A DNA stretch of 64,000 bases from Escherichia coli (GCF_016026235.1 NZ_CP065613.1); one strand, 5' to 3'. Shown: positions 8,932 to 64,000, counted from the stretch's first letter. The notes: generated by a model not told the origin, from the sequence alone. Numbers and translations are program-made.

Positions 8932-10152
8932 TCAGTCTTTATGCCGGTTATCAGGCAGGAATATGGTCAACATCCCCAATAGTGGCAGGAAAGCACAGAT
9001 TTTATAGACTAACTCGATGCTGGTGTGATCGGCGATAAGCCCCAGAACTGCCGCTCCCAGACCTCCCATGCCAAAAGCAAAACCGAAAAAGAGTCCAGAA
9101 ACCATACCGATACGTCCTGGAAGCAGCTCCTGAGCGTAGACTAGAATGGCAGAGAATGCCGAAGCGAGGATAAATCCAATAATCACCGTTAAAACCCCCG
9201 TCCAGTGCAGGCTGGCGTAGGGTAAAATCAGCGTAAACGGCGCAACGCCGAGGATAGAGCCCCAAATCACATATTTCCGCCCAATTTTATCCCCTACAGG
9301 CCCGCCGATCACCGTACCTGCCGCAACGGCAAACAGGAAGGCAAACAGATGAAGCTGAGCATTCTGGATAGATAATCCGAATTTTTGCATCAGATAAAAG
9401 GTGTAATAGCTGCTGATGCTCGCCATATAGAAATATTTCGAGAAAATGAGGATTAACAGAATGCTGACCGCCAGTACAACTTTATTGCGCGGCAGTGGAT
9501 TGATAATCGTCGCTTTGGGTTTTCCTTTATTCATTCGGTGCTGTGCCGAGTACCAACGGCTGATTTGCGCCAACACCACGATCGCCAGCAGTGCCGCAAG
9601 CACAAACCAGGCAACGTTGCCTTTGCCATAAGGCGCGATAATCACCGCCGCCAGCAAGGGTCCCAGGGAACTGCCAAAGTTGCCGCCGACCTGAAAGATT
9701 GATTGCGCCAGGCCATGCCGCCCGCCGGACGCCATACGGGCCACGCGAGAAGATTCCGGATGAAAGACCGATGAACCGGTACCGACCAGCGCCGCCGCCA
9801 GCAGAACTGCGCCAAAACTGCCTGCCAGCGCAAGCAGCACCAGACCACTTAAGGTAAAGCACATGCCAATTGGCAACGACCACGGCATCGGATATTTATC
9901 GGTCCAGTAGCCGACCACTGGTTGCAGTAGCGAAGAGGCGAGCTGGAAGGTGAGGGTTATCATGCCAATCTGCATAAATGTCAGAGAAAATTCTGACTGA
10001 AGCAGCGGATAAATCGCCAGAATCAGCGATTGGATCATATCGTTCAGCAGATGTGAGAGGCTGATAGCACCTAAAATACCAAACGATGTTCGGGCCTTGG
10101 TCGTTGACGCAGCCGCGCCCGCCACAGGCTGGGTTTGTTCACTCATTGCCAT
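8932..10152 (-). CDS. fsr: MFS transporter, fosmidomycin resistance protein
   Basis: 406-aa 12-TM-type ORF recognised as Fsr. Confidence 0.9.
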   Translation of the reverse strand: MAMSEQTQPVAGAAASTTKARTSFGILGAISLSHLLNDMIQSLILAIYPLLQSEFSLTFMQIGMITLTFQLASSLLQPVVGYWTDKYPMPWSLPIGMCFTLSGLVLLALAGSFGAVLLAAALVGTGSSVFHPESSRVARMASGGRHGLAQSIFQVGGNFGSSLGPLLAAVIIAPYGKGNVAWFVLAALLAIVVLAQISRWYSAQHRMNKGKPKATIINPLPRNKVVLAVSILLILIFSKYFYMASISSYYTFYLMQKFGLSIQNAQLHLFAFLFAVAAGTVIGGPVGDKIGRKYVIWGSILGVAPFTLILPYASLHWTGVLTVIIGFILASAFSAILVYAQELLPGRIGMVSGLFFGFAFGMGGLGAAVLGLIADHTSIELVYKICAFLPLLGMLTIFLPDNRHKD

Positions 10153-12058: not shown

Positions 12059-12553
<495 letters not shown>

Positions 12554-35652: not shown

Positions 35653-36531
35653 ATGAAACTGGGATTTATTGGCTTAGGCATTATGGGTACACCGATGGCC
35701 ATTAATCTGGCGCGTGCCGGTCATCAATTACATGTCACGACCATTGGACCGGTTGCTGATGAATTACTGTCACTGGGTGCCGTCAGTGTTGAAACTGCTC
35801 GCCAGGTAACGGAAGCATCGGACATCATTTTTATTATGGTGCCGGACACACCTCAGGTTGAAGAAGTTCTGTTCGGTGAAAATGGTTGTACCAAAGCCTC
35901 GCTGAAGGGCAAAACCATTGTTGATATGAGCTCCATTTCCCCGATTGAAACTAAGCGTTTCGCTCGTCAGGTGAATGAACTGGGCGGCGATTATCTCGAT
36001 GCGCCAGTCTCCGGCGGTGAAATCGGTGCGCGTGAAGGGACGTTGTCGATTATGGTTGGCGGTGATGAAGCGGTATTTGAACGTGTTAAACCGCTGTTTG
36101 AACTGCTCGGTAAAAATATCACCCTCGTGGGCGGTAACGGCGATGGTCAAACCTGCAAAGTGGCAAATCAGATTATTGTGGCGCTCAATATTGAAGCGGT
36201 TTCTGAAGCCCTGCTATTTGCTTCAAAAGCCGGTGCAGACCCGGTACGTGTGCGCCAGGCGCTGATGGGCGGCTTTGCTTCCTCACGTATTCTGGAAGTT
36301 CACGGTGAGCGCATGATTAAACGCACCTTTAATCCAGGTTTCAAAATTGCGCTGCACCAGAAAGATCTCAACCTGGCACTGCAAAGTGCGAAAGCACTTG
36401 CGCTGAATCTGCCAAACACCGCGACCTGCCAGGAGTTATTTAATACCTGTGCGGCAAACGGTGGCAGCCAGTTGGATCACTCTGCGTTAGTGCAGGCGCT
36501 GGAATTAATGGCGAATCATAAACTGGCCTGA
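35653..36531 (+). CDS. glxR: Tartronate semialdehyde reductase
   Basis: 292-aa ORF with N-terminal GxGxxG (3-hydroxyisobutyrate dehydrogenase family). Confidence 0.93.
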   Translation: MKLGFIGLGIMGTPMAINLARAGHQLHVTTIGPVADELLSLGAVSVETARQVTEASDIIFIMVPDTPQVEEVLFGENGCTKASLKGKTIVDMSSISPIETKRFARQVNELGGDYLDAPVSGGEIGAREGTLSIMVGGDEAVFERVKPLFELLGKNITLVGGNGDGQTCKVANQIIVALNIEAVSEALLFASKAGADPVRVRQALMGGFASSRILEVHGERMIKRTFNPGFKIALHQKDLNLALQSAKALALNLPNTATCQELFNTCAANGGSQLDHSALVQALELMANHKLA

Positions 36532-36699
36532 TACCCGCAATAAAAATGGCCGATATCAGAATATGAATCGGCCAGCAATATTAAAAAAGAAAGCAGCCAA
36601 AGATGTTGCTTCAGTATTAAAAATAATATTTTTATTTTATTTGTTCCTCATAGCTAGATTAAAACAACGTTATTCGATACGTGAAATTAAGAGGGATTT

Positions 36700-38154
36700 A
36701 TGGAACATCAGAGAAAACTATTCCAGCAACGCGGCTATAGCGAAGATCTATTGCCGAAAACGCAAAGCCAGCGGACCTGGAAAACATTTAACTATTTTAC
36801 CTTATGGATGGGTTCGGTTCATAACGTTCCCAATTATGTGATGGTCGGCGGCTTTTTTATTCTCGGCTTGTCTACCTTTAGTATTATGCTGGCAATTATC
36901 CTCAGCGCCTTTTTCATTGCCGCGGTAATGGTATTAAACGGCGCTGCGGGCAGTAAATACGGCGTACCGTTTGCCATGATCCTGCGTGCTTCTTACGGCG
37001 TACGTGGCGCACTGTTTCCCGGATTATTAAGAGGCGGTATTGCTGCCATTATGTGGTTTGGCCTGCAATGTTACGCGGGGTCACTGGCCTGCTTGATTCT
37101 GATTGGCAAAATCTGGCCGGGATTTTTAACTCTCGGTGGTGATTTCACGCTGTTAGGGCTTTCTCTACCGGGCTTAATTACTTTCTTACTCTTCTGGCTG
37201 GTCAACGTTGGTATAGGTTTTGGCGGTGGCAAAGTTTTAAATAAATTCACTGCCATTCTTAACCCGTGCATCTATATCGTTTTCGGCGGTATGGCGATTT
37301 GGGCGATTTCGCTGGTCGGGCTCGGTCCAATCTTTGACTACATTCCGAGCGGTATTCAGAAAGCAGAAAACAGTGGCTTCCTGTTCCTGGTGGTGATAAA
37401 CGCGGTAGTTGCGGTCTGGGCGGCACCGGCGGTGAGCGCATCCGACTTTACGCAAAACGCCCACTCGTTTCGTGAGCAAGCGCTGGGGCAAACGCTGGGT
37501 TTAGTTGTGGCCTATATTCTGTTTGCGGTCGCGGGGGTATGTATTATTGCCGGAGCCAGTATTCATTACGGCGCTGATACCTGGAACGTGCTGGATATTG
37601 TTCAGCGTTGGGACAGCTTGTTCGCCTCGTTCTTTGCGGTACTGGTTATTCTGATGACGACTATCTCCACTAACGCCACCGGTAATATTATTCCTGCCGG
37701 TTATCAGATTGCCGCTATTGCACCGACGAAACTGACTTATAAAAACGGCGTACTGATTGCCAGTATTATCAGCCTGCTGATCTGCCCGTGGAAATTAATG
37801 GAAAATCAGGACAGTATTTATCTGTTCCTCGATATTATCGGCGGAATGCTTGGTCCGGTAATTGGTGTCATGATGGCGCATTATTTTGTGGTGATGCGTG
37901 GGAAAATTAATCTTGATGAACTGTATACCGCACCTGGCGATTATAAATATTACGATAACGGTTTTAACCTCACTGCGTTTTCAGTAACTCTGGTGGCCGT
38001 TATTTTATCTCTTGGCGGTAAGTTTATTCCCTTTATGGAACCGTTATCGCGTGTTTCATGGTTTGTCGGCGTCATCGTCGCCTTTGCGGCCTACGCCTTA
38101 TTAAAGAAACGTACAACAGCAGAAAAAACAGGAGAGCAAAAAACCATAGGTTAA
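36700..38154 (+). CDS. ybbW: NCS1-family putative allantoin permease
   Basis: 484-aa polytopic ORF within the allantoin cluster. Confidence 0.9.
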   Translation: MEHQRKLFQQRGYSEDLLPKTQSQRTWKTFNYFTLWMGSVHNVPNYVMVGGFFILGLSTFSIMLAIILSAFFIAAVMVLNGAAGSKYGVPFAMILRASYGVRGALFPGLLRGGIAAIMWFGLQCYAGSLACLILIGKIWPGFLTLGGDFTLLGLSLPGLITFLLFWLVNVGIGFGGGKVLNKFTAILNPCIYIVFGGMAIWAISLVGLGPIFDYIPSGIQKAENSGFLFLVVINAVVAVWAAPAVSASDFTQNAHSFREQALGQTLGLVVAYILFAVAGVCIIAGASIHYGADTWNVLDIVQRWDSLFASFFAVLVILMTTISTNATGNIIPAGYQIAAIAPTKLTYKNGVLIASIISLLICPWKLMENQDSIYLFLDIIGGMLGPVIGVMMAHYFVVMRGKINLDELYTAPGDYKYYDNGFNLTAFSVTLVAVILSLGGKFIPFMEPLSRVSWFVGVIVAFAAYALLKKRTTAEKTGEQKTIG

Positions 38155-45058: not shown

Positions 45059-46108
45059 TTATTGCGCAAAGGGATTTTTCGTTTCGTATGACGTGTTATA
45101 AAGCGCGTCGGAAATTAAATACTGGTAAATATCATCAACAATTTCGATGCCTTCGACGGCGGCTTTGCGTTGTTTAATATCCTGATCCTGTCCGGGATAA
45201 TAAACCTGATTAAAACCGGGCGCGGGGGTAATGGCATTTAATTCGCGCATGGTCTGGCTAAGATGTTGACGGAATAATTCGCTGGAGGAGAAAAAGTTCG
45301 GGTTAATAACTACATGTAATTGCCCCAAATTACGCCCGGCGTGTAAATCGTCATACATCGAACTAACCTGTCGCCCGAACGGTAAGCCGAGTAAGACGCC
45401 TGAGAGGACGTCAATCATCATCATCAGGCCATACCCTTTCGGCCCGGCTGCGGGGAGCAGAGCATGTACCGCGAACGGATCGGTTGTTGGTGCACCGTTT
45501 TTATCGACCGCCCAGGTATCCGGGATAGACATATTACGCGAGCGGGCGTCGAGCACTTTTCCCCATGCCTGTACGGTAGTCGCCATATCAAAGGTAAGGA
45601 TCTCGTCGCCTTCTCCCGGCGCGGCAAAGGCCAGTGGGTTAGTACCGTAGTAAATTTCCGCGCCGCCAAACGGCACCACCATTGGATCGGACTGGCACAT
45701 CGAAATGCCAATTAATCCGGCGCGGGCTGCCTGCTGCACAAAATAAGAGATTGCGCCGCTGTGACCCATCCGGCTGATACCGACCACCGCAACGCCATTT
45801 TGCTGGGCGGTTTCGATGGCATGTTCCATACCCATTTTCGCCGCGACCTGTCCGGCGGCATTGTCGGCATGTAAAATTGCCGAGCACGGCCCGGTTTCCT
45901 CAAGACGAAACTCCGGTTCGCGGTTGGTGCCGCCTTTTGAAATGCGTTCCGCGTAGTATTCCACGCGCACCGCGCCATGAGAGTGGATCCCTCTGGCATC
46001 GGCGTAAACCAATACTTCAGCCACGGTTGCAGCGTGCTCACGTTTTAACCCAGCCTGGCAGAGTTTATTCTCAATTAGCTGGTGGAGTGTTTCCCGACTG
46101 ATTTTCAT
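45059..46108 (-). CDS. allD: Ureidoglycolate dehydrogenase
   Basis: 349-aa ORF (Ldh2/malate-sulfolactate dehydrogenase family). Confidence 0.9.
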   Translation of the reverse strand: MKISRETLHQLIENKLCQAGLKREHAATVAEVLVYADARGIHSHGAVRVEYYAERISKGGTNREPEFRLEETGPCSAILHADNAAGQVAAKMGMEHAIETAQQNGVAVVGISRMGHSGAISYFVQQAARAGLIGISMCQSDPMVVPFGGAEIYYGTNPLAFAAPGEGDEILTFDMATTVQAWGKVLDARSRNMSIPDTWAVDKNGAPTTDPFAVHALLPAAGPKGYGLMMMIDVLSGVLLGLPFGRQVSSMYDDLHAGRNLGQLHVVINPNFFSSSELFRQHLSQTMRELNAITPAPGFNQVYYPGQDQDIKQRKAAVEGIEIVDDIYQYLISDALYNTSYETKNPFAQ

Positions 46109-46167
46109 CTGTCTTCCTTTTTAACGACGGTGTGAAGCATGACTGCAATTAACATACAGGGAAAATA

Positions 46168-46187
46168 TCTGGATTATGTGATCCAGA
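46168..46187. promoter_or_regulatory. Perfect palindrome TCTGGAT-N6-ATCCAGA in the allD-fdrA divergent intergenic region
   Basis: 7-bp arms with a 6-bp spacer, about 60 bp upstream of the allD start; candidate operator, for example for the LysR-type activator AllS. Confidence 0.4.
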
Positions 46188-46424
46188 CAGGCAAAAAAAT
46201 ATAGTTAGAATTTATTTGATAATCTTCGCGCTTTTAACCTGGTTTTTAAAACAACCATGCTTATTAAAAAATAACGCGTAATAGTCTGGCGGTTATTTGA
46301 ATTCTTTTGTTAATAATCCCTGTGTGATATTCATCACCTTATTTACCCGTTGTCATCGATACCGTAATCGCCACATTAACACTGCTCGTGCAATTGCCAT
46401 GGGTGCAATTTTTAAGGAGTTGTT

Positions 46425-48092
46425 ATGATCCACGCCTTTATTAAAAAAGGGTGTTTTCAGGATTCGGTCAGTTTAATGATTATTTCACGAAAACTCAGCG
46501 AATCAGAAAATGTTGATGATGTTTCCGTAATGATGGGTACGCCCGCCAATAAAGCGTTATTAGATACCACAGGTTTCTGGCATGACGATTTTAATAACGC
46601 CACGCCGAACGATATTTGCGTGGCAATTCGTAGCGAAGCGGCGGATGTGGGGATCGCGCAGGCGATTATGCAGCAGCTTGAAGAGGCGCTAAAACAACTG
46701 GCGCAGGGGTCAGGCAGCAGCCAGTCCTTGACGCAGGTGCGTCGCTGGGACAGTGTCTGTCAGAAATTACCCGATGCCAATCTGGCGCTGATTTCAGTGG
46801 CTGGCGAGTATGCGGCGGAGCTGGCGAATCAGGCGCTGGATCGCAACCTCAACGTGATGATGTTCTCCGATAACGTCACGCTGAAAGATGAAATCCAACT
46901 TAAAACCCGCGCGCGAGAAAAAGGCTTGCTGGTGATGGGGCCGGACTGCGGTACGTCGATGATTGCCGGCACGCCGCTGGCTTTTGCTAACGTGATGCCG
47001 GAAGGCAATATTGGCGTCATTGGCGCTTCCGGTACCGGGATTCAGGAGCTGTGCTCGCAGATTGCGCTGGCAGGGGAGGGAATTACTCACGCGATTGGCC
47101 TTGGCGGCCGCGACCTCAGCCGTGAAGTGGGCGGCATCAGTGCGCTAACAGCGCTGGAAATGCTCAGTGCAGACGAGAAAAGCGAAGTGCTGGCATTTGT
47201 TTCAAAACCACCTGCCGATGCTGTGCGTCTGAAAATTGTTAATGCCATGAAAGCAACCGGCAAACCGACGGTGGCGCTGTTTTTAGGTTATACCCCGGCG
47301 GTGGCCCGTGACGAGAATGTCTGGTTTGCCTCCTCGCTGGATGAGGCCGCACGCCTGGCTTGCCTGCTTTCACGCGTTACGGCGCGACGTAACGCGATAA
47401 CGCCAGCCAGCAGCGGATTTATTTGCGGTTTGTATACCGGCGGTACGCTGGCTGCCGAAGCGGCGGGATTACTTGCCGGACACCTTGGCGTGGAAGCCGA
47501 TGATGCCCATCATCACGGCATGATGCTCGACGCCGATGGTCACCAGATTATTGACCTCGGCGATGATTTCTACACAGTCGGGCGTCCCCATCCGATGATC
47601 GACCCAACCTTACGCAACCAGTTAATTGCCGATCTCGGCGCTAAACCGCAAGTGCGTGTGCTGCTGCTTGATGTCGTGATTGGCTTCGGTGCGACTGCCG
47701 ATCCTGCCGCCTCGCTGGTAAGCGCCTGGCAAAAAGCCTGTGCTGCGCGTTCAGACAATCAACCACTGTATGCCATTGCCACGGTGACAGGCACTGAACG
47801 TGACCCGCAATGCCGCTCGCAGCAAATCGCCACGCTGGAAGATGCGGGGATTGCGGTCGTGAGTTCGCTACCGGAAGCCACCTTGCTGGCGGCAGCGTTA
47901 ATTCATCCGCTCTCACCTGCCGCACAGCAACACACACCGTCATTACTGGAAAACGTCGCCGTGATTAACATCGGATTACGCAGTTTTGCGCTGGAGCTAC
48001 AAAGCGCCAGCAAACCGGTTGTGCATTACCAATGGTCGCCAGTCGCCGGCGGCAATAAAAAACTGGCTCGTTTATTAGAACGTTTGCAATAA
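46425..48092 (+). CDS. fdrA: FdrA (CoA-binding / succinyl-CoA synthetase alpha-like domain protein)
   Basis: 555-aa ORF recognised as FdrA. Confidence 0.85.
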   Translation: MIHAFIKKGCFQDSVSLMIISRKLSESENVDDVSVMMGTPANKALLDTTGFWHDDFNNATPNDICVAIRSEAADVGIAQAIMQQLEEALKQLAQGSGSSQSLTQVRRWDSVCQKLPDANLALISVAGEYAAELANQALDRNLNVMMFSDNVTLKDEIQLKTRAREKGLLVMGPDCGTSMIAGTPLAFANVMPEGNIGVIGASGTGIQELCSQIALAGEGITHAIGLGGRDLSREVGGISALTALEMLSADEKSEVLAFVSKPPADAVRLKIVNAMKATGKPTVALFLGYTPAVARDENVWFASSLDEAARLACLLSRVTARRNAITPASSGFICGLYTGGTLAAEAAGLLAGHLGVEADDAHHHGMMLDADGHQIIDLGDDFYTVGRPHPMIDPTLRNQLIADLGAKPQVRVLLLDVVIGFGATADPAASLVSAWQKACAARSDNQPLYAIATVTGTERDPQCRSQQIATLEDAGIAVVSSLPEATLLAAALIHPLSPAAQQHTPSLLENVAVINIGLRSFALELQSASKPVVHYQWSPVAGGNKKLARLLERLQ

Positions 48093-56349: not shown

Positions 56350-56562
56350 TCAGGCAACAACCTGTACGCTGTGACCTGCAAAACTCACTGTCTGCCCGGC
56401 GACGATTTTGCAGCGTTTGCGCGTTTCAACCGCACCGTCGACTTTCACCTGGCCTTCGGCAATCGCGATTTTCGCCTGCGCGCCGCTTTCGCTCCAGCCT
56501 TCCAGTTTCAGCAAGTCGCACAGCTCAACGTGCGGATGTTTACCTAAAGAAAATGTCGCCAT
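56350..56562 (-). CDS. ybcJ: S4-domain RNA-binding protein
   Basis: 70-aa ORF from MATFSLGK, immediately after the folD stop; the track ORF is an 18-codon upstream extension into folD. Confidence 0.8.
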   Translation of the reverse strand: MATFSLGKHPHVELCDLLKLEGWSESGAQAKIAIAEGQVKVDGAVETRKRCKIVAGQTVSFAGHSVQVVA

Positions 56563-56563
56563 G

Positions 56564-57430
56564 TTACTCACCCTGTGGATCATGATATTCAACGCACGCC
56601 TGAAGCGTGTTTTCAATCAGCGTGGCAACCGTCATCGGGCCAACGCCGCCCGGAACAGGCGTAATGTATGAGGCGCGTTTAGCCGCGTCTTCAAACACGA
56701 CGTCGCCCACAACTTTGCCATTTTCCAGACGGTTGATGCCGACATCAATCACAATTGCGCCTTCTTTGATCCAGTCACCGGGAATAAAACCTGGCTTACC
56801 GACGGCAACGATCAACAGATCGGCATTTTCTACGTGATGACGCAGATTTTTAGTGAAGCGGTGAGTCACGGTAGTGGTGCAACCTGCGAGCAACAGTTCC
56901 ATGCTCATTGGACGACCGACGATATTCGATGCGCCAATCACCACTGCGTTGAGGCCGAAGGTATCAATGTTGTAACGCTCAAGCAGCGTGACAATACCGC
57001 GCGGGGTGCAGGGACGCAGACGCGGCGCGCGCTGGCACAGGCGACCGACGTTATAAGGATGGAAACCGTCCACGTCTTTGTCCGGATGAATACGTTCCAG
57101 CACTTTGACGTTATCAATACCCGCCGGTAACGGCAGTTGAACCAGAATGCCATCGATGGTGTTGTCGGCATTCAGCGCATCGATAAGCTCCAGCAGCTCC
57201 GCTTCGCTGGTGGTTTCCGGGAGGTCATAAGAGCGGGAGACGAACCCGACTTCTTCACAAGCCTTGCGTTTGCTTGCGACATAAATTTGCGATGCAGGGT
57301 TACTACCCACCAGCACAACGGCCAGTCCTGGTGCCCGCAGTCCGGCTGCAATACGCGCCTGAACTTTTTGAGCAACTTCAGAGCGCACCTGCTGCGCAAT
57401 CGTTTTACCGTCAATAATCTTTGCTGCCAT
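56564..57430 (-). CDS. folD: Bifunctional methylenetetrahydrofolate dehydrogenase / methenyl-THF cyclohydrolase
   Basis: 288-aa ORF recognised as FolD. Confidence 0.95.
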
Positions 57431-57900
57431 CAGAGAGAGGATTCCATCTGTTACGTTGGTCGAAGGGGATGCGCCTATTTTGTCAGAAGCGGGGCGCGCT
57501 GTCAGGTTTCGTTTCAGATTTATCGCGTGAAGCGACCTCTTGCGAAGGTGAGGCGCACTGTCGCTGAGATTGAAAGCTTCATTTTTCGTCCATGATGGCG
57601 TTGTAAATCTGGAACTGACTTATTTCCTTGTCAAAGGATTAAGATAATTTAAGAAATACCTGACAATATAAAAAGAATTTTCAGCCTGGTAATTTACCGC
57701 TTCAGGTCTATATTTGTGTTGAATATATTTTGCGCGGAAGTATTCATCTAACGGGGCTCTCTATTTTTTAGAATAGAGTGCATATTTTCAATTAAGACAT
57801 TCTTAGAGGATAAAAAGGAATTTACTACTATCAGTGTCTTAAATAAAGTAATCGGTTATATACGGATGTGGAGTCGATAAATGAGATTGAAGGAATATAT

Positions 57901-58443
57901 ATGAAATTAAGATTTATTTCGTCTGCGCTGGCTGCCGCACTATTCGCCGCTACGGGTAGTTATGCTGCCGTTGTAGATGGCGGTACAATTCACTTTGAAG
58001 GCGAACTGGTGAATGCTGCCTGTTCAGTGAATACTGACTCGGCAGACCAGGTTGTCACACTCGGTCAATATCGTACCGATATTTTCAATGCTGTTGGTAA
58101 TACCTCTGCATTAATTCCATTCACTATACAGTTGAACGACTGCGATCCTGTTGTTGCCGCTAATGCTGCCGTTGCATTTTCTGGTCAGGCTGATGCAATC
58201 AATGATAATTTATTGGCCATTGCATCCAGTACCAATACAACAACAGCAACGGGTGTCGGTATTGAAATACTTGATAATACATCCGCAATTCTCAAACCTG
58301 ATGGGAATAGCTTCTCAACCAACCAGAACTTGATCCCCGGGACCAACGTTCTTCATTTTTCTGCACGTTATAAAGGCACCGGTACAAGTGCATCAGCAGG
58401 GCAAGCAAATGCTGACGCGACTTTTATTATGAGATACGAATAA
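57901..58443 (+). CDS. sfmA: Type 1-like fimbrial major subunit
   Basis: 180-aa ORF from MKLRFISS with signal peptide and pilin fold (GAAGGAA RBS); the track start at 57868 is an upstream GTG. Confidence 0.85.
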
Positions 58444-58662
58444 TCAAAACCACGTTGTTTTGAATTATATATCACGTCTTATAACAAAGTAATGTACCGG
58501 TTGTCTGAAGCGGTATGGTGGCAATGTAAATCGAAATCATGTTCACTTTGTATCATGCCGCTTTATTAAATGAAAAGGGAATGATGTGTTGTAAGAAACC
58601 AAAGCAATCATTTCTTTATATTTCTTATTTTTGCCGTCAGGAATACACAAGGCGTATTAACT

Positions 58663-59355
58663 ATGATGACTAAAATAAAGTTATTGATGCTCATTATATT
58701 TTATTTAATCATTTCGGCCAGCGCCCATGCTGCCGGAGGGATCGCATTAGGTGCCACGCGTATTATTTATCCCGCTGATGCTAAACAGACTGCGGTATGG
58801 ATTAGAAATAGCCATACCAATGAGCGTTTTCTGGTCAATTCGTGGATTGAAAACAGCAGCGGTGTAAAAGAAAAGTCATTCATCATTACACCGCCACTAT
58901 TTGTTAGTGAACCCAAAAGCGAAAATACTTTGCGTATTATTTACACCGGTCCACCGCTGGCGGCAGATCGTGAGTCTCTGTTCTGGATGAATGTTAAGAC
59001 GATCCCTTCGGTAGATAAAAATGCATTGAACGGCAGGAATGTTTTGCAACTGGCGATTTTATCGCGCATGAAGTTATTTCTCCGTCCAATTCAATTACAA
59101 GAATTACCCGCAGAAGCGCCGGACACACTCAAGTTTTCGCGATCCGGTAACTATATCAATGTTCATAATCCATCACCTTTTTATGTCACCCTGGTTAACT
59201 TACAAGTGGGCAGCCAAAAGTTGGGGAATGCTATGGCTGCACCCAGAGTTAATTCACAAATTCCCTTACCCTCAGGAGTGCAGGGAAAGCTGAAATTTCA
59301 GACCGTTAATGATTATGGTTCAGTAACCCCGGTCAGAGAAGTGAACTTAAACTAA
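58663..59355 (+). CDS. sfmC: Periplasmic fimbrial chaperone (PapD-like)
   Basis: 230-aa ORF with signal peptide. Confidence 0.9.
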
Positions 59356-59385
59356 CCGAATCATCTGACAATATCAGAGCTAATT

Positions 59386-61995
59386 ATGAAAATACCCACT
59401 ACTACGGATATTCCGCAGAGGTATACCTGGTGTCTGGCCGGAATTTGTTATTCATCTCTTGCCATTTTACCCTCCTTTTTAAGCTATGCGGAAAGTTATT
59501 TCAACCCGGCATTTTTATTAGAGAATGGCACATCCGTTGCTGATTTATCGCGCTTTGAGAGAGGTAATCATCAACCTGCGGGCGTGTATCGGGTGGATCT
59601 CTGGCGTAATGATGAGTTCATTGGTTCACAGGATATCGTATTTGAATCGACAACAGAAAATACAGGTGATAAATCAGGTGGGTTAATGCCCTGTTTTAAC
59701 CAGGTACTCCTTGAACGAATTGGCCTTAATAGCAGTGCATTTCCCGAGTTAGCCCAGCAGCAAAATAATAAATGTATCGATTTACTGAAAGCTATACCTG
59801 ATGCCACAATTAACTTTGATTTTGCAGCGATGCGCCTGAACATCACTATTCCACAGATAGCGTTGCTGAGTAGCGCTCACGGTTACATTCCGCCTGAAGA
59901 GTGGGACGAGGGTATTCCTGCTTTACTCCTGAATTATAATTTCACCGGTAACAGAGGTAATGGTAACGATAGCTATTTTTTTAGTGAGCTCAGCGGGATT
60001 AATATTGGCCCGTGGCGTTTACGCAACAATGGTTCCTGGAACTATTTTCGCGGAAATGGATATCATTCAGAACAGTGGAATAATATTGGCACCTGGGCAC
60101 AGCGCGCCATTATTCCGCTGAAAAGTGAACTGGTAATGGGAGACGGCAATACAGGAAGTGATATTTTCGATGGTGTTGGATTTCGTGGTATACGGCTTTA
60201 CTCTTCCGATAATATGTATCCTGATAGCCAGCAAGGGTTTGCCCCAACGGTACGTGGGATTGCCCGTACGGCGGCCCAGCTAACGATTCGGCAAAATGGT
60301 TTTATTATCTATCAAAGCTATGTTTCCCCCGGCGCTTTTGAAATTACAGATTTGCACCCGACATCTTCAAATGGCGACCTGGACGTCACCATCGACGAGC
60401 GCGATGGTAATCAGCAGAATTACACAATTCCGTATTCAACAGTGCCAATTTTACAACGCGAAGGGCGTTTCAAATTTGACCTGACGGCGGGCGATTTTCG
60501 TAGCGGTAATAGTCAGCAATCATCGCCTTTCTTTTTTCAGGGCACGGCACTCGGCGGTTTACCACAGGAATTTACTGCCTACGGCGGGACGCAATTATCT
60601 GCCAATTACACCGCCTTTTTATTAGGGCTGGGGCGCAACCTCGGGAACTGGGGCGCAGTGTCGCTGGATGTGACCCATGCGCGCAGCCAGTTAGCCGACG
60701 ACAGTCGTCATGAGGGGGATTCCATTCGCTTCCTCTATGCGAAATCGATGAACACCTTCGGCACCAATTTTCAGTTAATGCGTTACCGCTATTCGACACA
60801 AGGTTTTTATACCCTTGATGATGTTGCGTATCGTCGAATGGAGGGGTACGAATATGATTACGATTACGACGGTGAGCATCGCGATGAACCGATAATCGTG
60901 AATTACCACAATTTACGCTTTAGCCGTAAAGACCGTTTGCAGTTAAATATTTCACAATCACTTAATGACTTTGGCTCGCTTTATATCTCTGGTACCCATC
61001 AAAAATACTGGAATACTTCGGATTCAGATACCTGGTATCAGGTGGGGTATACCAGCAGCTGGGTTGGCATCAGTTATTCACTCTCATTTTCGTGGAATGA
61101 ATCTGTAGGGATCCCCGATAACGAACGTATTGTCGGACTTAATGTTTCAGTGCCTTTCAATGTTCTGACCAAACGTCGCTACACCCGGGAAAATGCGCTC
61201 GACCGCGCTTATGCCTCCTTTAACGCCAACCGTAACAGCAACGGGCAAAATAGCTGGCTGGCAGGTGTAGGTGGGACCTTACTGGAAGGCCACAACCTGA
61301 GTTATCACGTAAGCCAGGGTGATACCTCGAATAATGGGTATACGGGCAGCGCCACGGCAAACTGGCAGGCCACTTACGGTACGCTGGGGGTCGGGTATAA
61401 CTACGACCGCGATCAACATGACGTTAACTGGCAGCTGTCTGGCGGTGTGGTCGGGCATGAAAATGGCATAACGCTGGGCCAGCCTTTAGGGGATACCAAT
61501 GTTTTGATTAAAGCGCCTGGCGCAGGCGGTGTACGCATTGAAAATCAAACTGGCATTTTAACCGACTGGCGCGGCTATGCGGTGATGCCGTATGCCACGG
61601 TTTATCGGTATAACCGTATCGCGCTTGATACCAATACGATGGGGAATTCCATCGATGTTGAAAAAAATATTAGCAGCGTTGTGCCGACGCAAGGCGCGTT
61701 GGTTCGTGCCAATTTTGATACCCGCATAGGCGTGCGGGCGCTCATTACCGTTACCCAGGGCGGAAAACCGGTGCCGTTTGGATCACTGGTACGGGAAAAC
61801 AGTACCGGAATAACCAGTATGGTGGGTGATGACGGGCAAGTTTATTTAAGTGGTGCGCCATTGTCTGGTGAATTACTGGTTCAGTGGGGAGACGGCGCGA
61901 ACTCACGCTGCATTGCGCACTATGTATTGCCGAAGCAAAGCTTACAGCAAGCCGTCACTGTTATTTCGGCAGTTTACACACATCCTGGCTCATAA
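59386..61995 (+). CDS. sfmD: Fimbrial outer-membrane usher
   Basis: 869-aa usher-family ORF. Confidence 0.9.
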
Positions 61996-62007
61996 AGGAA
62001 ATTATCA

Positions 62008-63015
62008 ATGAAGATAATCTGCAGATTATTATTGGCAATGGCATGTTTGTGTCTGGCAAACATATCCTGGGCTACTGTTTGTGCAAATAGTACTGGCGTA
62101 GCAGAAGATGAACACTATGATCTCTCAAATGTCTTTAATAGCACCAATAATCAGCCAGGGCAGATTGTTGTTTTACCGGAAAAATCCGGCTGGGTAGGTG
62201 TGTCAGCAATTTGTCCACCCGGCACGCTGGTGAATTATACATACCGTAGTTATGTCACCAACTTTATTGTTCAGGAAACTATCGATAATTATAAATATAT
62301 GCAATTAAATGATTATCTATTAGGTGCGATGAGTCTGGTTGATAGCGTGATGGATATTCAATTTCCCCCGCAAAATTATATTCGTATGGGAACAGATCCT
62401 AACGTTTCGCAAAACCTTCCGTTCGGGGTGATGGATTCTCGTTTGATATTTCGTTTAAAGGTTATTCGGCCCTTTATTAACATGGTGGAGATCCCCAGAC
62501 AGGTGATGTTTACCGTGTATGTGACATCAACGCCTTACGATCCGTTGGTTACACCTGTTTATACCATTAGTTTTGGTGGCCGGGTTGAAGTACCGCAAAA
62601 CTGCGAATTAAATGCCGGGCAGATTGTTGAATTTGATTTTGGTGATATCGGCGCATCGTTATTTAGTGCGGCAGGGCCGGGTAATCGACCTGCTGGTGTC
62701 ATGCCGCAAACCAAGAGCATTGCGGTCAAATGTACGAATGTTGCTGCGCAGGCTTATTTAACAATGCGTCTGGAAGCCAGTGCCGTTTCTGGTCAGGCGA
62801 TGGTGTCGGACAATCAGGATTTAGGTTTTATTGTCGCCGATCAGAACGATACGCCGATCACGCCTAACGATCTCAATAGCGTTATTCCTTTCCGTCTGGA
62901 TGCAGCTGCGGCAGCCAATGTCACACTTCGCGCCTGGCCTATCAGTATTACCGGTCAAAAACCGACCGAAGGGCCGTTTAGCGCGCTGGGGTATTTACGC
63001 GTCGATTATCAATGA
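62008..63015 (+). CDS. sfmH: Fimbrial adhesin-like subunit
   Basis: 335-aa ORF with signal peptide (FimH-like two-domain architecture). Confidence 0.85.
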   Translation: MKIICRLLLAMACLCLANISWATVCANSTGVAEDEHYDLSNVFNSTNNQPGQIVVLPEKSGWVGVSAICPPGTLVNYTYRSYVTNFIVQETIDNYKYMQLNDYLLGAMSLVDSVMDIQFPPQNYIRMGTDPNVSQNLPFGVMDSRLIFRLKVIRPFINMVEIPRQVMFTVYVTSTPYDPLVTPVYTISFGGRVEVPQNCELNAGQIVEFDFGDIGASLFSAAGPGNRPAGVMPQTKSIAVKCTNVAAQAYLTMRLEASAVSGQAMVSDNQDLGFIVADQNDTPITPNDLNSVIPFRLDAAAAANVTLRAWPISITGQKPTEGPFSALGYLRVDYQ

Positions 63016-63025
63016 GGTACGGAGA

Positions 63026-63541
63026 ATGAGAAGAGTACTCTTTAGCTGTTTCTGCGGGCTACTGTGGAGTTCCAGTGGATGGGCAGTTGACCCTTTAGGA
63101 ACGATTAATATCAATTTGCACGGTAACGTTGTTGATTTCTCCTGTACCGTAAACACAGCGGATATTGATAAGACGGTAGATTTAGGCAGATGGCCTACGA
63201 CACAATTACTGAACGCTGGCGATACCACGGCACTCGTCCCTTTTAGCCTGCGGCTGGAGGGATGTCCTCCGGGTTCAGTTGCGATTTTATTTACGGGAAC
63301 GCCGGCATCTGATGCCAACCTGCTGGTTCTGGATGATCCCGCAATGGCACAAACCGTTGCCATCGAATTACGTAATAGCGATCGCTCCCGGCTCGCACTG
63401 GGGGAGGCGAGCCCGACTGAGGAAGTAGATGCAAATGGCAATGTCACACTAAACTTTTTTGCCAATTATCGAGCGTTAGCCAGCGGTATTCGGCCAGGTG
63501 TGGCGAAAGCGGATGCGATATTTATGATCAATTATAATTAA
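63026..63541 (+). CDS. sfmF: Fimbrial minor subunit
   Basis: 171-aa ORF from MRRVLFSCF (GAGG RBS), 10 bp after the sfmH stop. Confidence 0.85.
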   Translation: MRRVLFSCFCGLLWSSSGWAVDPLGTININLHGNVVDFSCTVNTADIDKTVDLGRWPTTQLLNAGDTTALVPFSLRLEGCPPGSVAILFTGTPASDANLLVLDDPAMAQTVAIELRNSDRSRLALGEASPTEEVDANGNVTLNFFANYRALASGIRPGVAKADAIFMINYN

Positions 63542-63543
63542 TA

Positions 63544-64000
63544 TTATATTAATTCGTATAATTTGGCGTAGTCGATAAGCTCTACAATTGAATGCAAACC
63601 TAGCTTGCCATAAATATTAGATTTATGCGCACTAACTGTTTTATTGCTAAGTAATAACTTATCGGCAATTTCTTTATTAGATAATCCGCTGACCAGATAA
63701 CGTAATATCGTCACTTCACGATTAGATAGCACAGTGATCGTTGAACTATTCGTACTACATTTATTGCTTTTTATATAGTTGAGCGTTTCGCTGGGAAAAA
63801 AAGTGTATCCGGAGAGGATCATCTGAACGGCATGAAAAATATCATTCTGATCATTGCATTTACTGACAAAACCGTTAGCACCAGCTTGTATCGCTCTGCC
63901 AGCATAAAAGCATTCTGATTTCGATGATAAAAATAACACTTTCACTGTGCTCTGGATTTGTTTGATCCTTTTCAGGAAGGTAAAACCGTCTGTTCCGGGC
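63544..64000 (-). CDS. fimZ: LuxR/NarL-family response regulator FimZ, C-terminal part (5' end beyond window)
   Basis: Frame is open to the window edge; C-terminal LuxR-type HTH (…LSNREVTILRYLVSGLSNKEIADKL…); the N-terminal receiver domain lies past base 64000. Confidence 0.85.
   Translation of the reverse strand, partial: PGTDGFTFLKRIKQIQSTVKVLFLSSKSECFYAGRAIQAGANGFVSKCNDQNDIFHAVQMILSGYTFFPSETLNYIKSNKCSTNSSTITVLSNREVTILRYLVSGLSNKEIADKLLLSNKTVSAHKSNIYGKLGLHSIVELIDYAKLYELI

What the first reader, a model, noticed from the sequence alone, without database searches (positions are those of the whole stretch)
57431..64000. sfm chaperone-usher fimbrial operon with a 470-bp AT-rich leader and adjacent fimZ
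The folD-sfmA intergenic region is unusually long and AT-rich, typical of silenced (H-NS-bound) fimbrial promoters. The operon sfmACDHF is followed by the convergent regulator fimZ, whose N-terminus lies outside the window. No invertible switch or recombinase gene is visible in the leader.
Basis: partly seen in the sequence, partly recalled or inferred. Interest (0 to 1): 0.2.

Follow-up and report, generated by a model that had tools for sequence, protein, structure and literature searches.

The report
Known E. coli sfm fimbrial operon
This is the well-described, normally silent "Salmonella-like" (sfm) fimbrial gene cluster of E. coli with its AT-rich, H-NS-bound promoter region and its regulator fimZ; it is intact here but otherwise ordinary.

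Summary
folD starts at 57430 on the minus strand and sfmA at 57901, so the gap is exactly 470 bp. Intact sfmA, sfmC, sfmD, sfmH and sfmF follow, then the last 151 codons of convergent fimZ.

All six proteins pass curated equivalog models. The stretch is 98.75% identical to E. coli K-12, and 4813 of 5426 complete E. coli genomes hold a match.

One correction: the gap is composite. The folD-proximal 170 bp has normal composition (52% GC). Its first 84 bp persist in strains lacking sfm and carry a folD promoter-like site. Only the sfmA-proximal 300 bp is AT-rich (30.7% GC, lowest 0.06% of 300-bp windows here).

There is no sign of phase variation:
- The longest inverted repeat is 8 nt, equal to the shuffle median.
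- There are no GATC sites and no long simple repeats.
- There is no recombinase gene and no Rfam match.

Published ChIP data list this K-12 region as an H-NS-bound "promoter island". The cluster is the known ortholog of Salmonella fimAICDHF-fimZ, minus fimI, fimY and fimW. FimZ activation of sfmA is inferred from Salmonella, and the promoter region is poorly conserved.

Verdict: already known, low interest.

The parts
57431..57514 (.). folD-proximal core segment of the gap. It is kept in E. coli strains that lack the whole sfm cluster and is largely conserved in Salmonella.
   Evidence: 97.6% identity over 84 bp to the folD-argU spacer of APEC E956, which has no sfm. About 80% identity to S. 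enterica subsp. diarizonae over the first 89 bp of its gap.
57477..57505 (-). Sigma-70 promoter-like site pointing at folD (CTGACA, 17-nt spacer, TG-CAAAAT).
   Evidence: Consensus scan. Both hexamers lie in columns that are invariant between E. coli and two Salmonella subspecies. It is a consensus match only; function is inferred.
57560..57568 (.). 9-bp unit GTCGCTGAG. It is single here and in K-12 and tandemly duplicated in other E. coli lineages, giving gaps of 479-480 bp.
   Evidence: Alignment A1; gap lengths.
57601..57900 (+). AT-rich sfmA regulatory region (30.7% GC). It corresponds to the published H-NS-bound 'promoter island' of K-12.
   Evidence: Composition. PMC3661553 Table 1 and Figure 7 text. 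96-100% conserved in sfm-positive E. coli.
57624..57672 (+). Positional equivalent of the Salmonella PfimA FimZ-binding region (-98 to -47). It contains TTAAGATAATTTAAGAAAT and ATAAAAAGA.
   Evidence: Salmonella coordinates are from PMC3203922. They were located in L012 by its AAAATAAGA and ATTAAAAGA motifs and mapped through alignment A2. Identity in this block is only 48%, so this is inferred and not shown.
57713..57713 (+). Positional equivalent of the Salmonella fimA transcription start. It would give an sfmA 5'UTR of about 188 nt.
   Evidence: Mapping through alignment A2. A TATATT hexamer lies at 57709-57714 (read). Inferred; no E. coli start-site data were consulted.
57901..58443 (+). 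sfmA, major fimbrial subunit (180 aa).
   Evidence: Pfam Fimbrial, 2.1e-29. NCBIfam NF011741 FimA equivalog, 317 bits against a cutoff of 140. Identical to K-12 SfmA. 72% identical to S. arizonae FimA over 156 aa, and 7 residues shorter just after the signal peptide.
58444..58662 (+). 219-bp AT-rich (33.8% GC) sfmA-sfmC spacer, at the position where Salmonella has fimI.
   Evidence: No tblastn or blastn trace of fimI in the spacer. RNA fold z-score -1.87, not remarkable. No terminator-like site found on the + strand in the spacer.
58663..59355 (+). sfmC, periplasmic PapD-like chaperone (230 aa).
   Evidence: Pfam PapD_N and PapD_C. NF011742, 477.7 bits against a cutoff of 327. Identical to K-12.
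59386..61995 (+). sfmD, outer-membrane usher (869 aa).
   Evidence: Pfam PapC_N, Usher and PapC_C. NF011745, 1871 bits against a cutoff of 975. Two residues longer than K-12 through an extra in-frame GATTAC unit: YDYDYD at 60853-60870.
62008..63015 (+). sfmH, tip adhesin (335 aa) with a full signal peptide.
   Evidence: Pfam Fimbrial on residues 187-335. NF011746, 724.8 bits against a cutoff of 472. The only solved relative found by sequence is 5afo, labelled 'FIMBRIAE', at 2.7e-20. K-12 lacks this ATG because of a 1-bp deletion.
63026..63541 (+). sfmF, minor fimbrial subunit (171 aa). Codons 2 and 3 are both AGA.
   Evidence: Pfam Fimbrial. NF007402, 328.9 bits against a cutoff of 168. Codon count.
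63544..64000 (-). fimZ, C-terminal 151 of 210 residues: the end of the receiver domain plus the LuxR/GerE helix-turn-helix. It is convergent with sfmF, with 2 bp between the stop codons.
   Evidence: Pfam GerE and Response_reg. One amino-acid difference from K-12 FimZ over the visible part. Full-length FimZ from the near-identical locus L001 scores 446.5 bits on NF007403 against a cutoff of 271.

Best explanation
The region is the chromosomal sfm ('Salmonella-like fimbriae') chaperone-usher gene cluster of E. coli, sfmACDHF plus fimZ. It sits between folD and the tRNA-Arg gene argU and is the ortholog of Salmonella fimAICDHF-fimZYW-fimU.

Shown here:
- All five structural genes are intact and full length.
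- The gap is composite. About 85-170 bp is ordinary core DNA carrying a conserved folD promoter-like site. About 300 bp is 31% GC DNA that belongs to the sfm cluster.
- The whole ~6.8-kb cluster, from position 85 of the gap to about 104 bp upstream of argU, is present or absent as a block among E. coli lineages.
- The gap has none of the sequence hallmarks of inversion, Dam-methylation or slipped-strand phase variation.

Taken from the literature on K-12:
- H-NS occupies this AT-rich region.
- The operon is cryptic under laboratory conditions.

Inferred by homology with Salmonella:
- Transcription starts about 190 nt upstream of the sfmA ATG.
- It is activated when the response regulator FimZ binds just upstream of the core promoter (about 57624-57672) and counteracts H-NS.
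- Rare AGA/AGG codons (14 of 86 Arg codons, including AGA-AGA at the start of sfmF) make translation sensitive to the neighbouring argU tRNA.

The pilus would then be assembled by the standard route. Sec exports the subunits, the SfmC chaperone captures them, and polymerisation proceeds through the SfmD usher with SfmH at the tip.
For: - Gene calls and domains.
- RefSeq annotation of genomes 99-100% identical.
- 98.75% identity to K-12.
- Composition.
- Block presence or absence, and its borders.
- Synteny and homology with Salmonella folD-fimA-fimI-fimC.
- Absence of switch signatures.
- Collinear single-piece matches of the gap in all 26 full-length genomes sampled across the ranking.
- H-NS occupancy of the K-12 region: PMC3661553.
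- Orthology, absence from phylogroup B2, and lack of mannose binding: PMC3604780 and PMC3559732.
- Salmonella FimZ site and transcription start: PMC3203922, mapped.
- Rare codons.
Against: - The promoter part of the gap is only 40-48% identical to Salmonella. The mapped FimZ site and start site are therefore positional guesses.
[quoted passage not shown] None of the papers I read shows FimZ acting on sfmA.
- E. coli lacks fimY, which Salmonella needs for FimZ-dependent activation.
- The promoter scan found no + strand sigma-70-like site in the gap, and the total number of sites equals the shuffle expectation.
- The H-NS consensus motif is at chance frequency.
- SfmA is 7 residues shorter at the N-terminus of the mature protein. 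PMC3604780 suggests this could impair donor-strand polymerisation.
Confidence: 0.9

Rival explanations
1. The long gap hides a fimS-like invertible promoter element that switches sfm ON and OFF.
For: Type 1 fimbriae of E. coli use such a switch (established knowledge). The repeat search lists several short inverted repeats, for example 8-nt perfect arms 57518-57525 and 57875-57882, 349 nt apart.
Against: - The longest perfect inverted repeat is 8 nt, the median of 300 shuffles.
- There is no recombinase gene between folD and fimZ.
- All 26 full-length matches sampled across 4813 genomes are single collinear pieces.
- Salmonella fim, the ortholog, is stated to have no promoter inversion (PMC2408971).
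Confidence: 0.02
2. Expression is phase-variable through a Pap-like Dam methylation/Lrp switch or through slipped-strand changes in a simple repeat.
For: Lrp binds Salmonella PfimA and both activates and represses it (PMC3203922). Many fimbrial operons use Dam/Lrp switches (established knowledge).
Against: There are no GATC sites anywhere in the 470 bp, and no homopolymer is longer than 6. The only length polymorphism seen is a 9-bp duplication in the GC-normal folD-proximal part. It is fixed within lineages rather than hypervariable.
Confidence: 0.03
3. The cluster is a decaying relic. It is permanently silent and no longer makes a functional fimbria, so the AT-rich 'promoter' is only accumulated silencing sequence.
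For: - It has lost fimI, fimY and fimW relative to Salmonella.
- SfmA has a shortened N-terminal extension (PMC3604780).
- The cluster is lost from phylogroup B2.
- It is hit by IS elements in some genomes.
- K-12 has lost the sfmH start codon.
- Per PMC3604780, no natural expression had been reported, and artificial expression gave only small afimbrial structures.
Against: - All five ORFs are intact here.
- At least 80% of the stretch is present in 4077 of 5426 genomes at 95-100% identity.
- SfmA and SfmC are identical to K-12.
- Published sfmA diversity is low (pi = 0.7%, dN much smaller than dS), which indicates purifying selection (PMC3604780).
Confidence: 0.15

Closest known systems
E. 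coli K-12 sfmACDHF-fimZ locus (b0530-b0535), including the folD/sfmA 'promoter island'
   Same: Same genes, order, flanks and 470-bp gap. 98.75% nucleotide identity over the 6570 bp. SfmA and SfmC are identical. The gap is 98.7% identical.
   Different: - The window keeps the upstream ATG of sfmH, giving 335 aa with a full signal peptide. K-12 has a 1-bp deletion there and is annotated at 325 aa.
- SfmD has one extra YD (GATTAC) unit and 12 substitutions relative to K-12.
- The closest relatives of the window have envY directly after argU, where K-12 has the DLP12 integrase intD. This lies outside the window.
Salmonella enterica type 1 fimbrial cluster fimAICDHF-fimZYW-fimU
   Same: - Same chromosomal position next to folD, with a long divergent gap of 544-546 bp.
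- FimA is 72% and FimC 63% identical to SfmA and SfmC.
- NCBIfam equivalog models for FimA, FimC, FimD, FimH and FimZ are all passed.
- No inversion switch. The regulator fimZ and a tRNA-Arg gene lie downstream.
   Different: - There is no fimI and no trace of it.
- No fimY, fimW or stm0551 in E. coli relatives.
- The promoter region is only 40-48% identical and more AT-rich (PMC3661553).
- SfmA lacks 7 residues after the signal peptide.
- Sfm is reported not to bind mannose (PMC3604780), although the automatic annotation calls SfmH a 'D-mannose specific adhesin'.
E. coli type 1 fimbriae (fimBE-fimS-fimAICDFGH)
   Same: A chaperone-usher pilus of the same broad class, with the same domain families.
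   Different: It is non-orthologous, sits at a different locus, and is regulated by the FimB/FimE recombinases inverting fimS (PMC3604780). None of those elements is present here.

Membership tests
Sfm / Salmonella-type Fim chaperone-usher fimbrial cluster | Major pilin, PapD-like chaperone, usher, two-domain tip adhesin and minor pilin encoded in one co-oriented operon | tested here: met
   Pfam domains for all five. NCBIfam models NF011741, NF011742, NF011745, NF011746 and NF007402 all score above their curated cutoffs over full length.
Sfm / Salmonella-type Fim chaperone-usher fimbrial cluster | Chromosomal position between folD and tRNA-Arg (argU/fimU) | tested here: met
   folD lies directly upstream and divergent. 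argU is beyond the window end but follows fimZ in genomes 99-100% identical to the window. Salmonella shows the same folD-fimA arrangement.
Sfm / Salmonella-type Fim chaperone-usher fimbrial cluster | fimI minor-subunit gene between the major subunit and chaperone genes (Salmonella form of the cluster) | tested here: not met
   Only a 219-bp non-coding spacer is present, and FimI tblastn and DNA blastn find no remnant. The same is true of K-12 sfm. This separates sfm from Salmonella fim; it does not exclude the window from sfm.
Sfm / Salmonella-type Fim chaperone-usher fimbrial cluster | Assembly of a surface fimbria with a defined receptor specificity | not testable with these tools
   PMC3604780 reports no mannose affinity and only small afimbrial structures on artificial expression in K-12.
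FimZ (NarL/FixJ-type response regulator of fimbrial genes) | Receiver domain plus C-terminal LuxR/GerE helix-turn-helix, matching the FimZ equivalog model | tested here: met
   The window part has GerE (9.3e-24) and the C-terminal half of Response_reg. It differs from K-12 FimZ at one residue. Full-length protein from L001 scores 446.5 bits against a cutoff of 271 on NF007403. The N-terminal 59 residues are outside the window.
FimZ (NarL/FixJ-type response regulator of fimbrial genes) | Partner regulators FimY and FimW encoded next to fimZ, as in the Salmonella circuit | tested here: not met
   In near-identical E. coli genomes fimZ is followed directly by tRNA-Arg.
FimZ (NarL/FixJ-type response regulator of fimbrial genes) | Direct binding of FimZ upstream of the major-subunit promoter | not testable with these tools
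   The Salmonella site (-98 to -47; PMC3203922) maps to 57624-57672 with 48% identity. That is suggestive only.
fimS-type invertible promoter switch | Inverted repeats flanking the promoter, beyond chance | tested here: not met
   Longest perfect inverted repeat is 8 nt; the shuffle median is 8 and the range 6-12. The imperfect pairs are short.
fimS-type invertible promoter switch | Adjacent site-specific recombinase gene(s) | tested here: not met
   No such ORF or domain lies between folD and fimZ.
fimS-type invertible promoter switch | Both orientations found among genomes | tested here: inconclusive
   All 26 sampled full-length matches are single collinear pieces, and 4174 genomes have one place covering at least 80% of the gap. 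However, 50 extra 'places' in the 4813 records were not inspected individually.
Pap-like Dam/Lrp methylation switch | Pair of GATC sites within Lrp sites upstream of the promoter | tested here: not met
   Zero GATC sites in 57431-57900.
H-NS-silenced AT-rich promoter ('promoter island') | AT content far above the genomic background over some hundreds of bp | tested here: met
   30.7% GC over 57601-57900 against a window mean of 51.8%; lowest 0.06% of 300-bp windows.
H-NS-silenced AT-rich promoter ('promoter island') | H-NS occupancy, and de-repression when hns is deleted | not testable with these tools
   Occupancy is published for the 98.7%-identical K-12 region (PMC3661553 Table 1). The H-NS consensus motif count is at chance.

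The most novel reading that the evidence does not exclude
The predicted ~190-nt AT-rich sfmA 5' region may be more than a silenced promoter. It could act as a regulatory RNA or DNA element in its own right. One form would be a long 5'UTR that titrates CsrA, as cited for the Salmonella fimAICDHF transcript (Sterzenbach et al. 2013, seen only as a reference title). Another would be a 'promoter island' that traps RNA polymerase and emits short abortive RNAs (PMC3661553). Either could couple sfm to other fimbrial or motility circuits in E. coli. My evidence does not exclude this, but nothing found here points to it specifically: there is no Rfam match and conservation with Salmonella is weak.
Probability: 0.1. 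Interest if true: 0.3.

Novelty: already known. Interest (0 to 1): 0.06.

Why it matters
It matters little as a discovery. The locus, its synteny with Salmonella fim, its absence from phylogroup B2, its cryptic state and the H-NS occupancy of its promoter region are all published. It is useful for annotation in three ways. First, this strain carries an intact sfm cluster, including the full-length sfmH start that K-12 has lost. Second, the automatic label 'D-mannose specific adhesin FimH' is probably misleading for SfmH. Third, whether FimZ alone, without FimY, activates sfmA in E. coli is still unsettled in the papers I read, and the coordinates given here make it easy to test.

Tried and rejected
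- Rfam scan of 56500-64000 at E <= 1: no match.
- Promoter and terminator scan of 57300-58800: counts equal the shuffle expectation, and there is no + strand promoter-like site in the gap.
- Repeat search in the gap: only short two-copy repeats. A shuffle test showed the best inverted repeat is at chance.
- H-NS consensus TCGATAAATT with up to 1 mismatch: one site in the gap (57874-57883), but the window-wide count equals chance. It was not used as evidence.
- Search for a fimI remnant in the sfmA-sfmC spacer by tblastn and blastn: nothing.
- RNA folding of that spacer: z = -1.87, unremarkable.
- Genome-collection scan with a back-translated GGTIHFEG pattern. It gave only two relevant loci (S. 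enterica subsp. arizonae and diarizonae) among 52, the rest being chance hits in unrelated phyla. I therefore could not do broad phylogenetic footprinting of the promoter. The E. coli species representative was not hit. It may belong to a lineage without sfm, but I did not check this.
- One Python call returned no answer and was repeated.
- Structure prediction, large protein-database searches and metagenome scans were not run. The curated equivalog matches and near-identity to K-12 made them unnecessary.
Full report
**What is in the sequence**

ORF listing and direct reading show folD on the minus strand, ending with its start codon at 57430. sfmA starts with ATG at 57901, preceded by an AAGGA ribosome-binding site at 57890-57894. 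The gap is therefore exactly 470 bp (57431-57900).

Downstream on the plus strand:

| Gene | Coordinates | Length |
|---|---|---|
| sfmA | 57901-58443 | 180 aa |
| sfmC | 58663-59355 | 230 aa |
| sfmD | 59386-61995 | 869 aa |
| sfmH | 62008-63015 | 335 aa |
| sfmF | 63026-63541 | 171 aa |

A convergent minus-strand ORF runs from 63544 to the window end. It encodes the C-terminal 151 residues of a LuxR-type response regulator.

Pfam gives the expected domains:
- Fimbrial for SfmA, the C-terminal half of SfmH, and SfmF.
- PapD_N and PapD_C for SfmC.
- PapC_N, Usher and PapC_C for SfmD.
- Response_reg (C-terminal half) and GerE for the partial regulator.

NCBIfam models for FimA, FimC, FimD, FimH, 'fimbria assembly protein' and FimZ (the FimD model is of subfamily type, the others equivalogs) are all exceeded over full length. 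FimZ was taken full-length from the near-identical locus L001.

**Where it occurs**

The 6570-bp stretch finds a match in 4813 of 5426 complete E. coli genomes, and 4077 of them cover at least 80% of it at 95-100% identity. RefSeq annotates the same gene series, with argU (tRNA-Arg) after fimZ.

Identity to K-12 BW25113 is 98.75% with two gaps. The best match, FDAARGOS_943, is 100% identical but carries an IS5 in sfmF that the window lacks.

**Composition of the gap**

The gap as a whole is 38.5% GC against 51.8% for the window, but it has two parts:
- 57431-57600 is 52.4% GC.
- 57601-57900 is 30.7% GC. Only 0.06% of 300-bp windows in the 64 kb are as low.

The sfmA-sfmC spacer (219 bp, 33.8% GC) and the fimZ end (36.5% GC) are the other AT-rich spots in the cluster. 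The operon itself is 45.9% GC.

The two-part structure has an evolutionary basis. About 640 genomes match only the first 84 bp of the gap. In one of them, APEC E956, folD is followed 270 bp later by tRNA-Arg, with no sfm genes at all. Its spacer matches gap positions 1-84, and then the 104 bp upstream of argU plus argU itself.

So the sfm-fimZ block, about 6.8 kb starting at window 57515, is present or absent as a unit. The first 84 bp belong to folD. A sigma-70-like site pointing at folD (CTGACA, 17-nt spacer, TG-CAAAAT; 57505 to 57477) lies in that segment. Both hexamers are invariant between E. coli and two Salmonella subspecies.

- The repeat search gives only short imperfect pairs.
- The longest perfect inverted repeat with arms at least 20 nt apart is 8 nt, the median of 300 shuffles (range 6-12).
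- There are no GATC sites and no homopolymer above 6 nt.
- There is no Rfam match at E <= 1.
- There is no recombinase ORF between folD and fimZ.
- Across genomes the gap is 96-100% identical. All 26 sampled full-length matches are single collinear pieces.
- The only length variant seen is a 9-bp unit (GTCGCTGAG, 57560-57568). It is duplicated in some lineages and lies in the GC-normal part.

An inversion switch, a Pap-like methylation switch and slipped-strand control are therefore not supported.

**Comparison with Salmonella**

A pattern scan of species genomes returned two relevant loci, S. enterica subsp. diarizonae (L012) and subsp. arizonae (L013). They show folD, a 544-546-bp gap, then fimA, fimI and fimC.

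SfmA is 72% identical to FimA over 156 residues and SfmC is 63% identical to FimC. SfmA lacks 7 residues just after the signal peptide. PMC3604780 noted such a deletion as a possible assembly defect. No trace of fimI survives in the sfmA-sfmC spacer. That spacer does not fold unusually well (z = -1.87).

For S. Typhimurium, PMC3203922 places the FimZ-binding region at -98 to -47 from the fimA start. It gives AAAATAAGA at -100 to -92 and ATTAAAAGA at -51 to -43. Both motifs are present in L012 at a spacing consistent with a start at 10124, 194 nt before the fimA ATG.

Through alignment A2, the FimZ region maps to window 57624-57672 and the start to about 57713. Identity there is only 40-48%. 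The best conserved block is TAAGAA-N-TA...AT-AAAAGA-N-TTT. These positions are homology-based guesses, not findings.

**What the literature adds**

- PMC3661553 lists the K-12 folD/sfmA region as a 351-bp 'promoter island'. It interacts with H-NS in the Kahramanoglou and Oshima data sets, and the paper discusses its AT enrichment relative to Salmonella.
- PMC3604780 and PMC3559732 establish three points. sfm is the ortholog of Salmonella fim at the same locus. It is absent from phylogroup B2. Sfm shows no mannose affinity and had no reported natural expression.
- PMC3559732 cites H-NS repression of cryptic chaperone-usher operons in commensal E. coli.
- PMC2408971 notes that FimZ is not known to regulate type 1 fimbriae in E. 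coli, and that Hha binds near fimZ and argU.
- PMC6527747 summarises the Salmonella FimZ/FimY/FimW/fimU circuit. E. coli retains only fimZ and the tRNA.

**Mechanism and confidence**

The identity of the locus is certain for practical purposes.

The regulatory model is partly published and partly inferred:
- H-NS silencing of the AT-rich 300 bp is published for K-12.
- FimZ-dependent activation upstream of a promoter about 190 nt before sfmA is inferred from Salmonella.
- A possible translational dependence on argU is inferred from codon use. 14 of 86 Arg codons in the operon are AGA/AGG, including AGA-AGA at codons 2-3 of sfmF.

Points against the FimZ step:
- The regulatory DNA is poorly conserved.
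- fimY is missing.
- No + strand consensus promoter was found.
- No paper I read shows FimZ acting on sfmA.

The main rival that is not mutually exclusive is that the cluster is a decaying relic. Intact ORFs in over 4000 genomes and published low non-synonymous diversity argue against that.

**Verdict**

Nothing here departs from the known sfm locus. Novelty: already known. Interest: low.

Noticed in passing
window 62005-62012 (sfmH start); L004 about 12071-12077: The window, strain D8 and FDAARGOS_943 read CAATGAAGATA, giving a 335-aa SfmH with a normal signal peptide (MKIICRLLLAMACLCLANISWA). K-12 BW25113 reads CAATAAGATA, a 1-bp deletion that destroys this ATG. K-12 SfmH is therefore annotated from a downstream ATG (325 aa) with a 12-residue stub in place of a signal peptide. 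K-12 may be a defective model for Sfm adhesin export.
   Followed up: partly
window 60853-60870 (inside sfmD): In-frame GATTAC repeat polymorphism. The window and strain D8 have YDYDYD, and K-12 has YDYD. This explains 869 against 867 residues.
   Followed up: yes
window 57560-57568: The 9-bp unit GTCGCTGAG is single here and in K-12. It is tandemly duplicated in strain 155 and PEC1011, giving gaps of 479-480 bp in many genomes.
   Followed up: yes
window 63029-63034 (sfmF codons 2-3) and the whole operon: sfmF begins ATG AGA AGA. 14 of 86 arginine codons in sfmACDHF are the rare AGA/AGG codons decoded by the argU tRNA, whose gene lies just beyond fimZ in related genomes.
   Followed up: partly
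L002 9082-9926 (FDAARGOS_943), equivalent to about window 63452: The only genome 100% identical to the window over this stretch has an IS5-family element interrupting sfmF. Another close genome (DSM 103246) has an ISKpn26-like IS5 element in the cluster. The window copy is uninterrupted.
   Followed up: partly
L003 4085-4166 (APEC E956, folD-argU spacer): In the sfm-negative strain, about 82 bp between the two conserved flanks are largely unique. A weak 35-bp, 80% match to the 5' part of fimZ may be a deletion scar.
   Followed up: partly
window 62008-63015: RefSeq/PGAP and NCBIfam name SfmH 'type 1 fimbria D-mannose specific adhesin FimH'. PMC3604780 reports that Sfm shows no affinity for mannosides. 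The N-terminal ~185 residues have no Pfam domain, and the only solved relative found by sequence is 5afo.
   Followed up: partly
window 36501-36860 and 46041-46530: Two other stretches at or below 36% GC in 300-bp windows elsewhere in the 64 kb. They were not examined.
   Followed up: no
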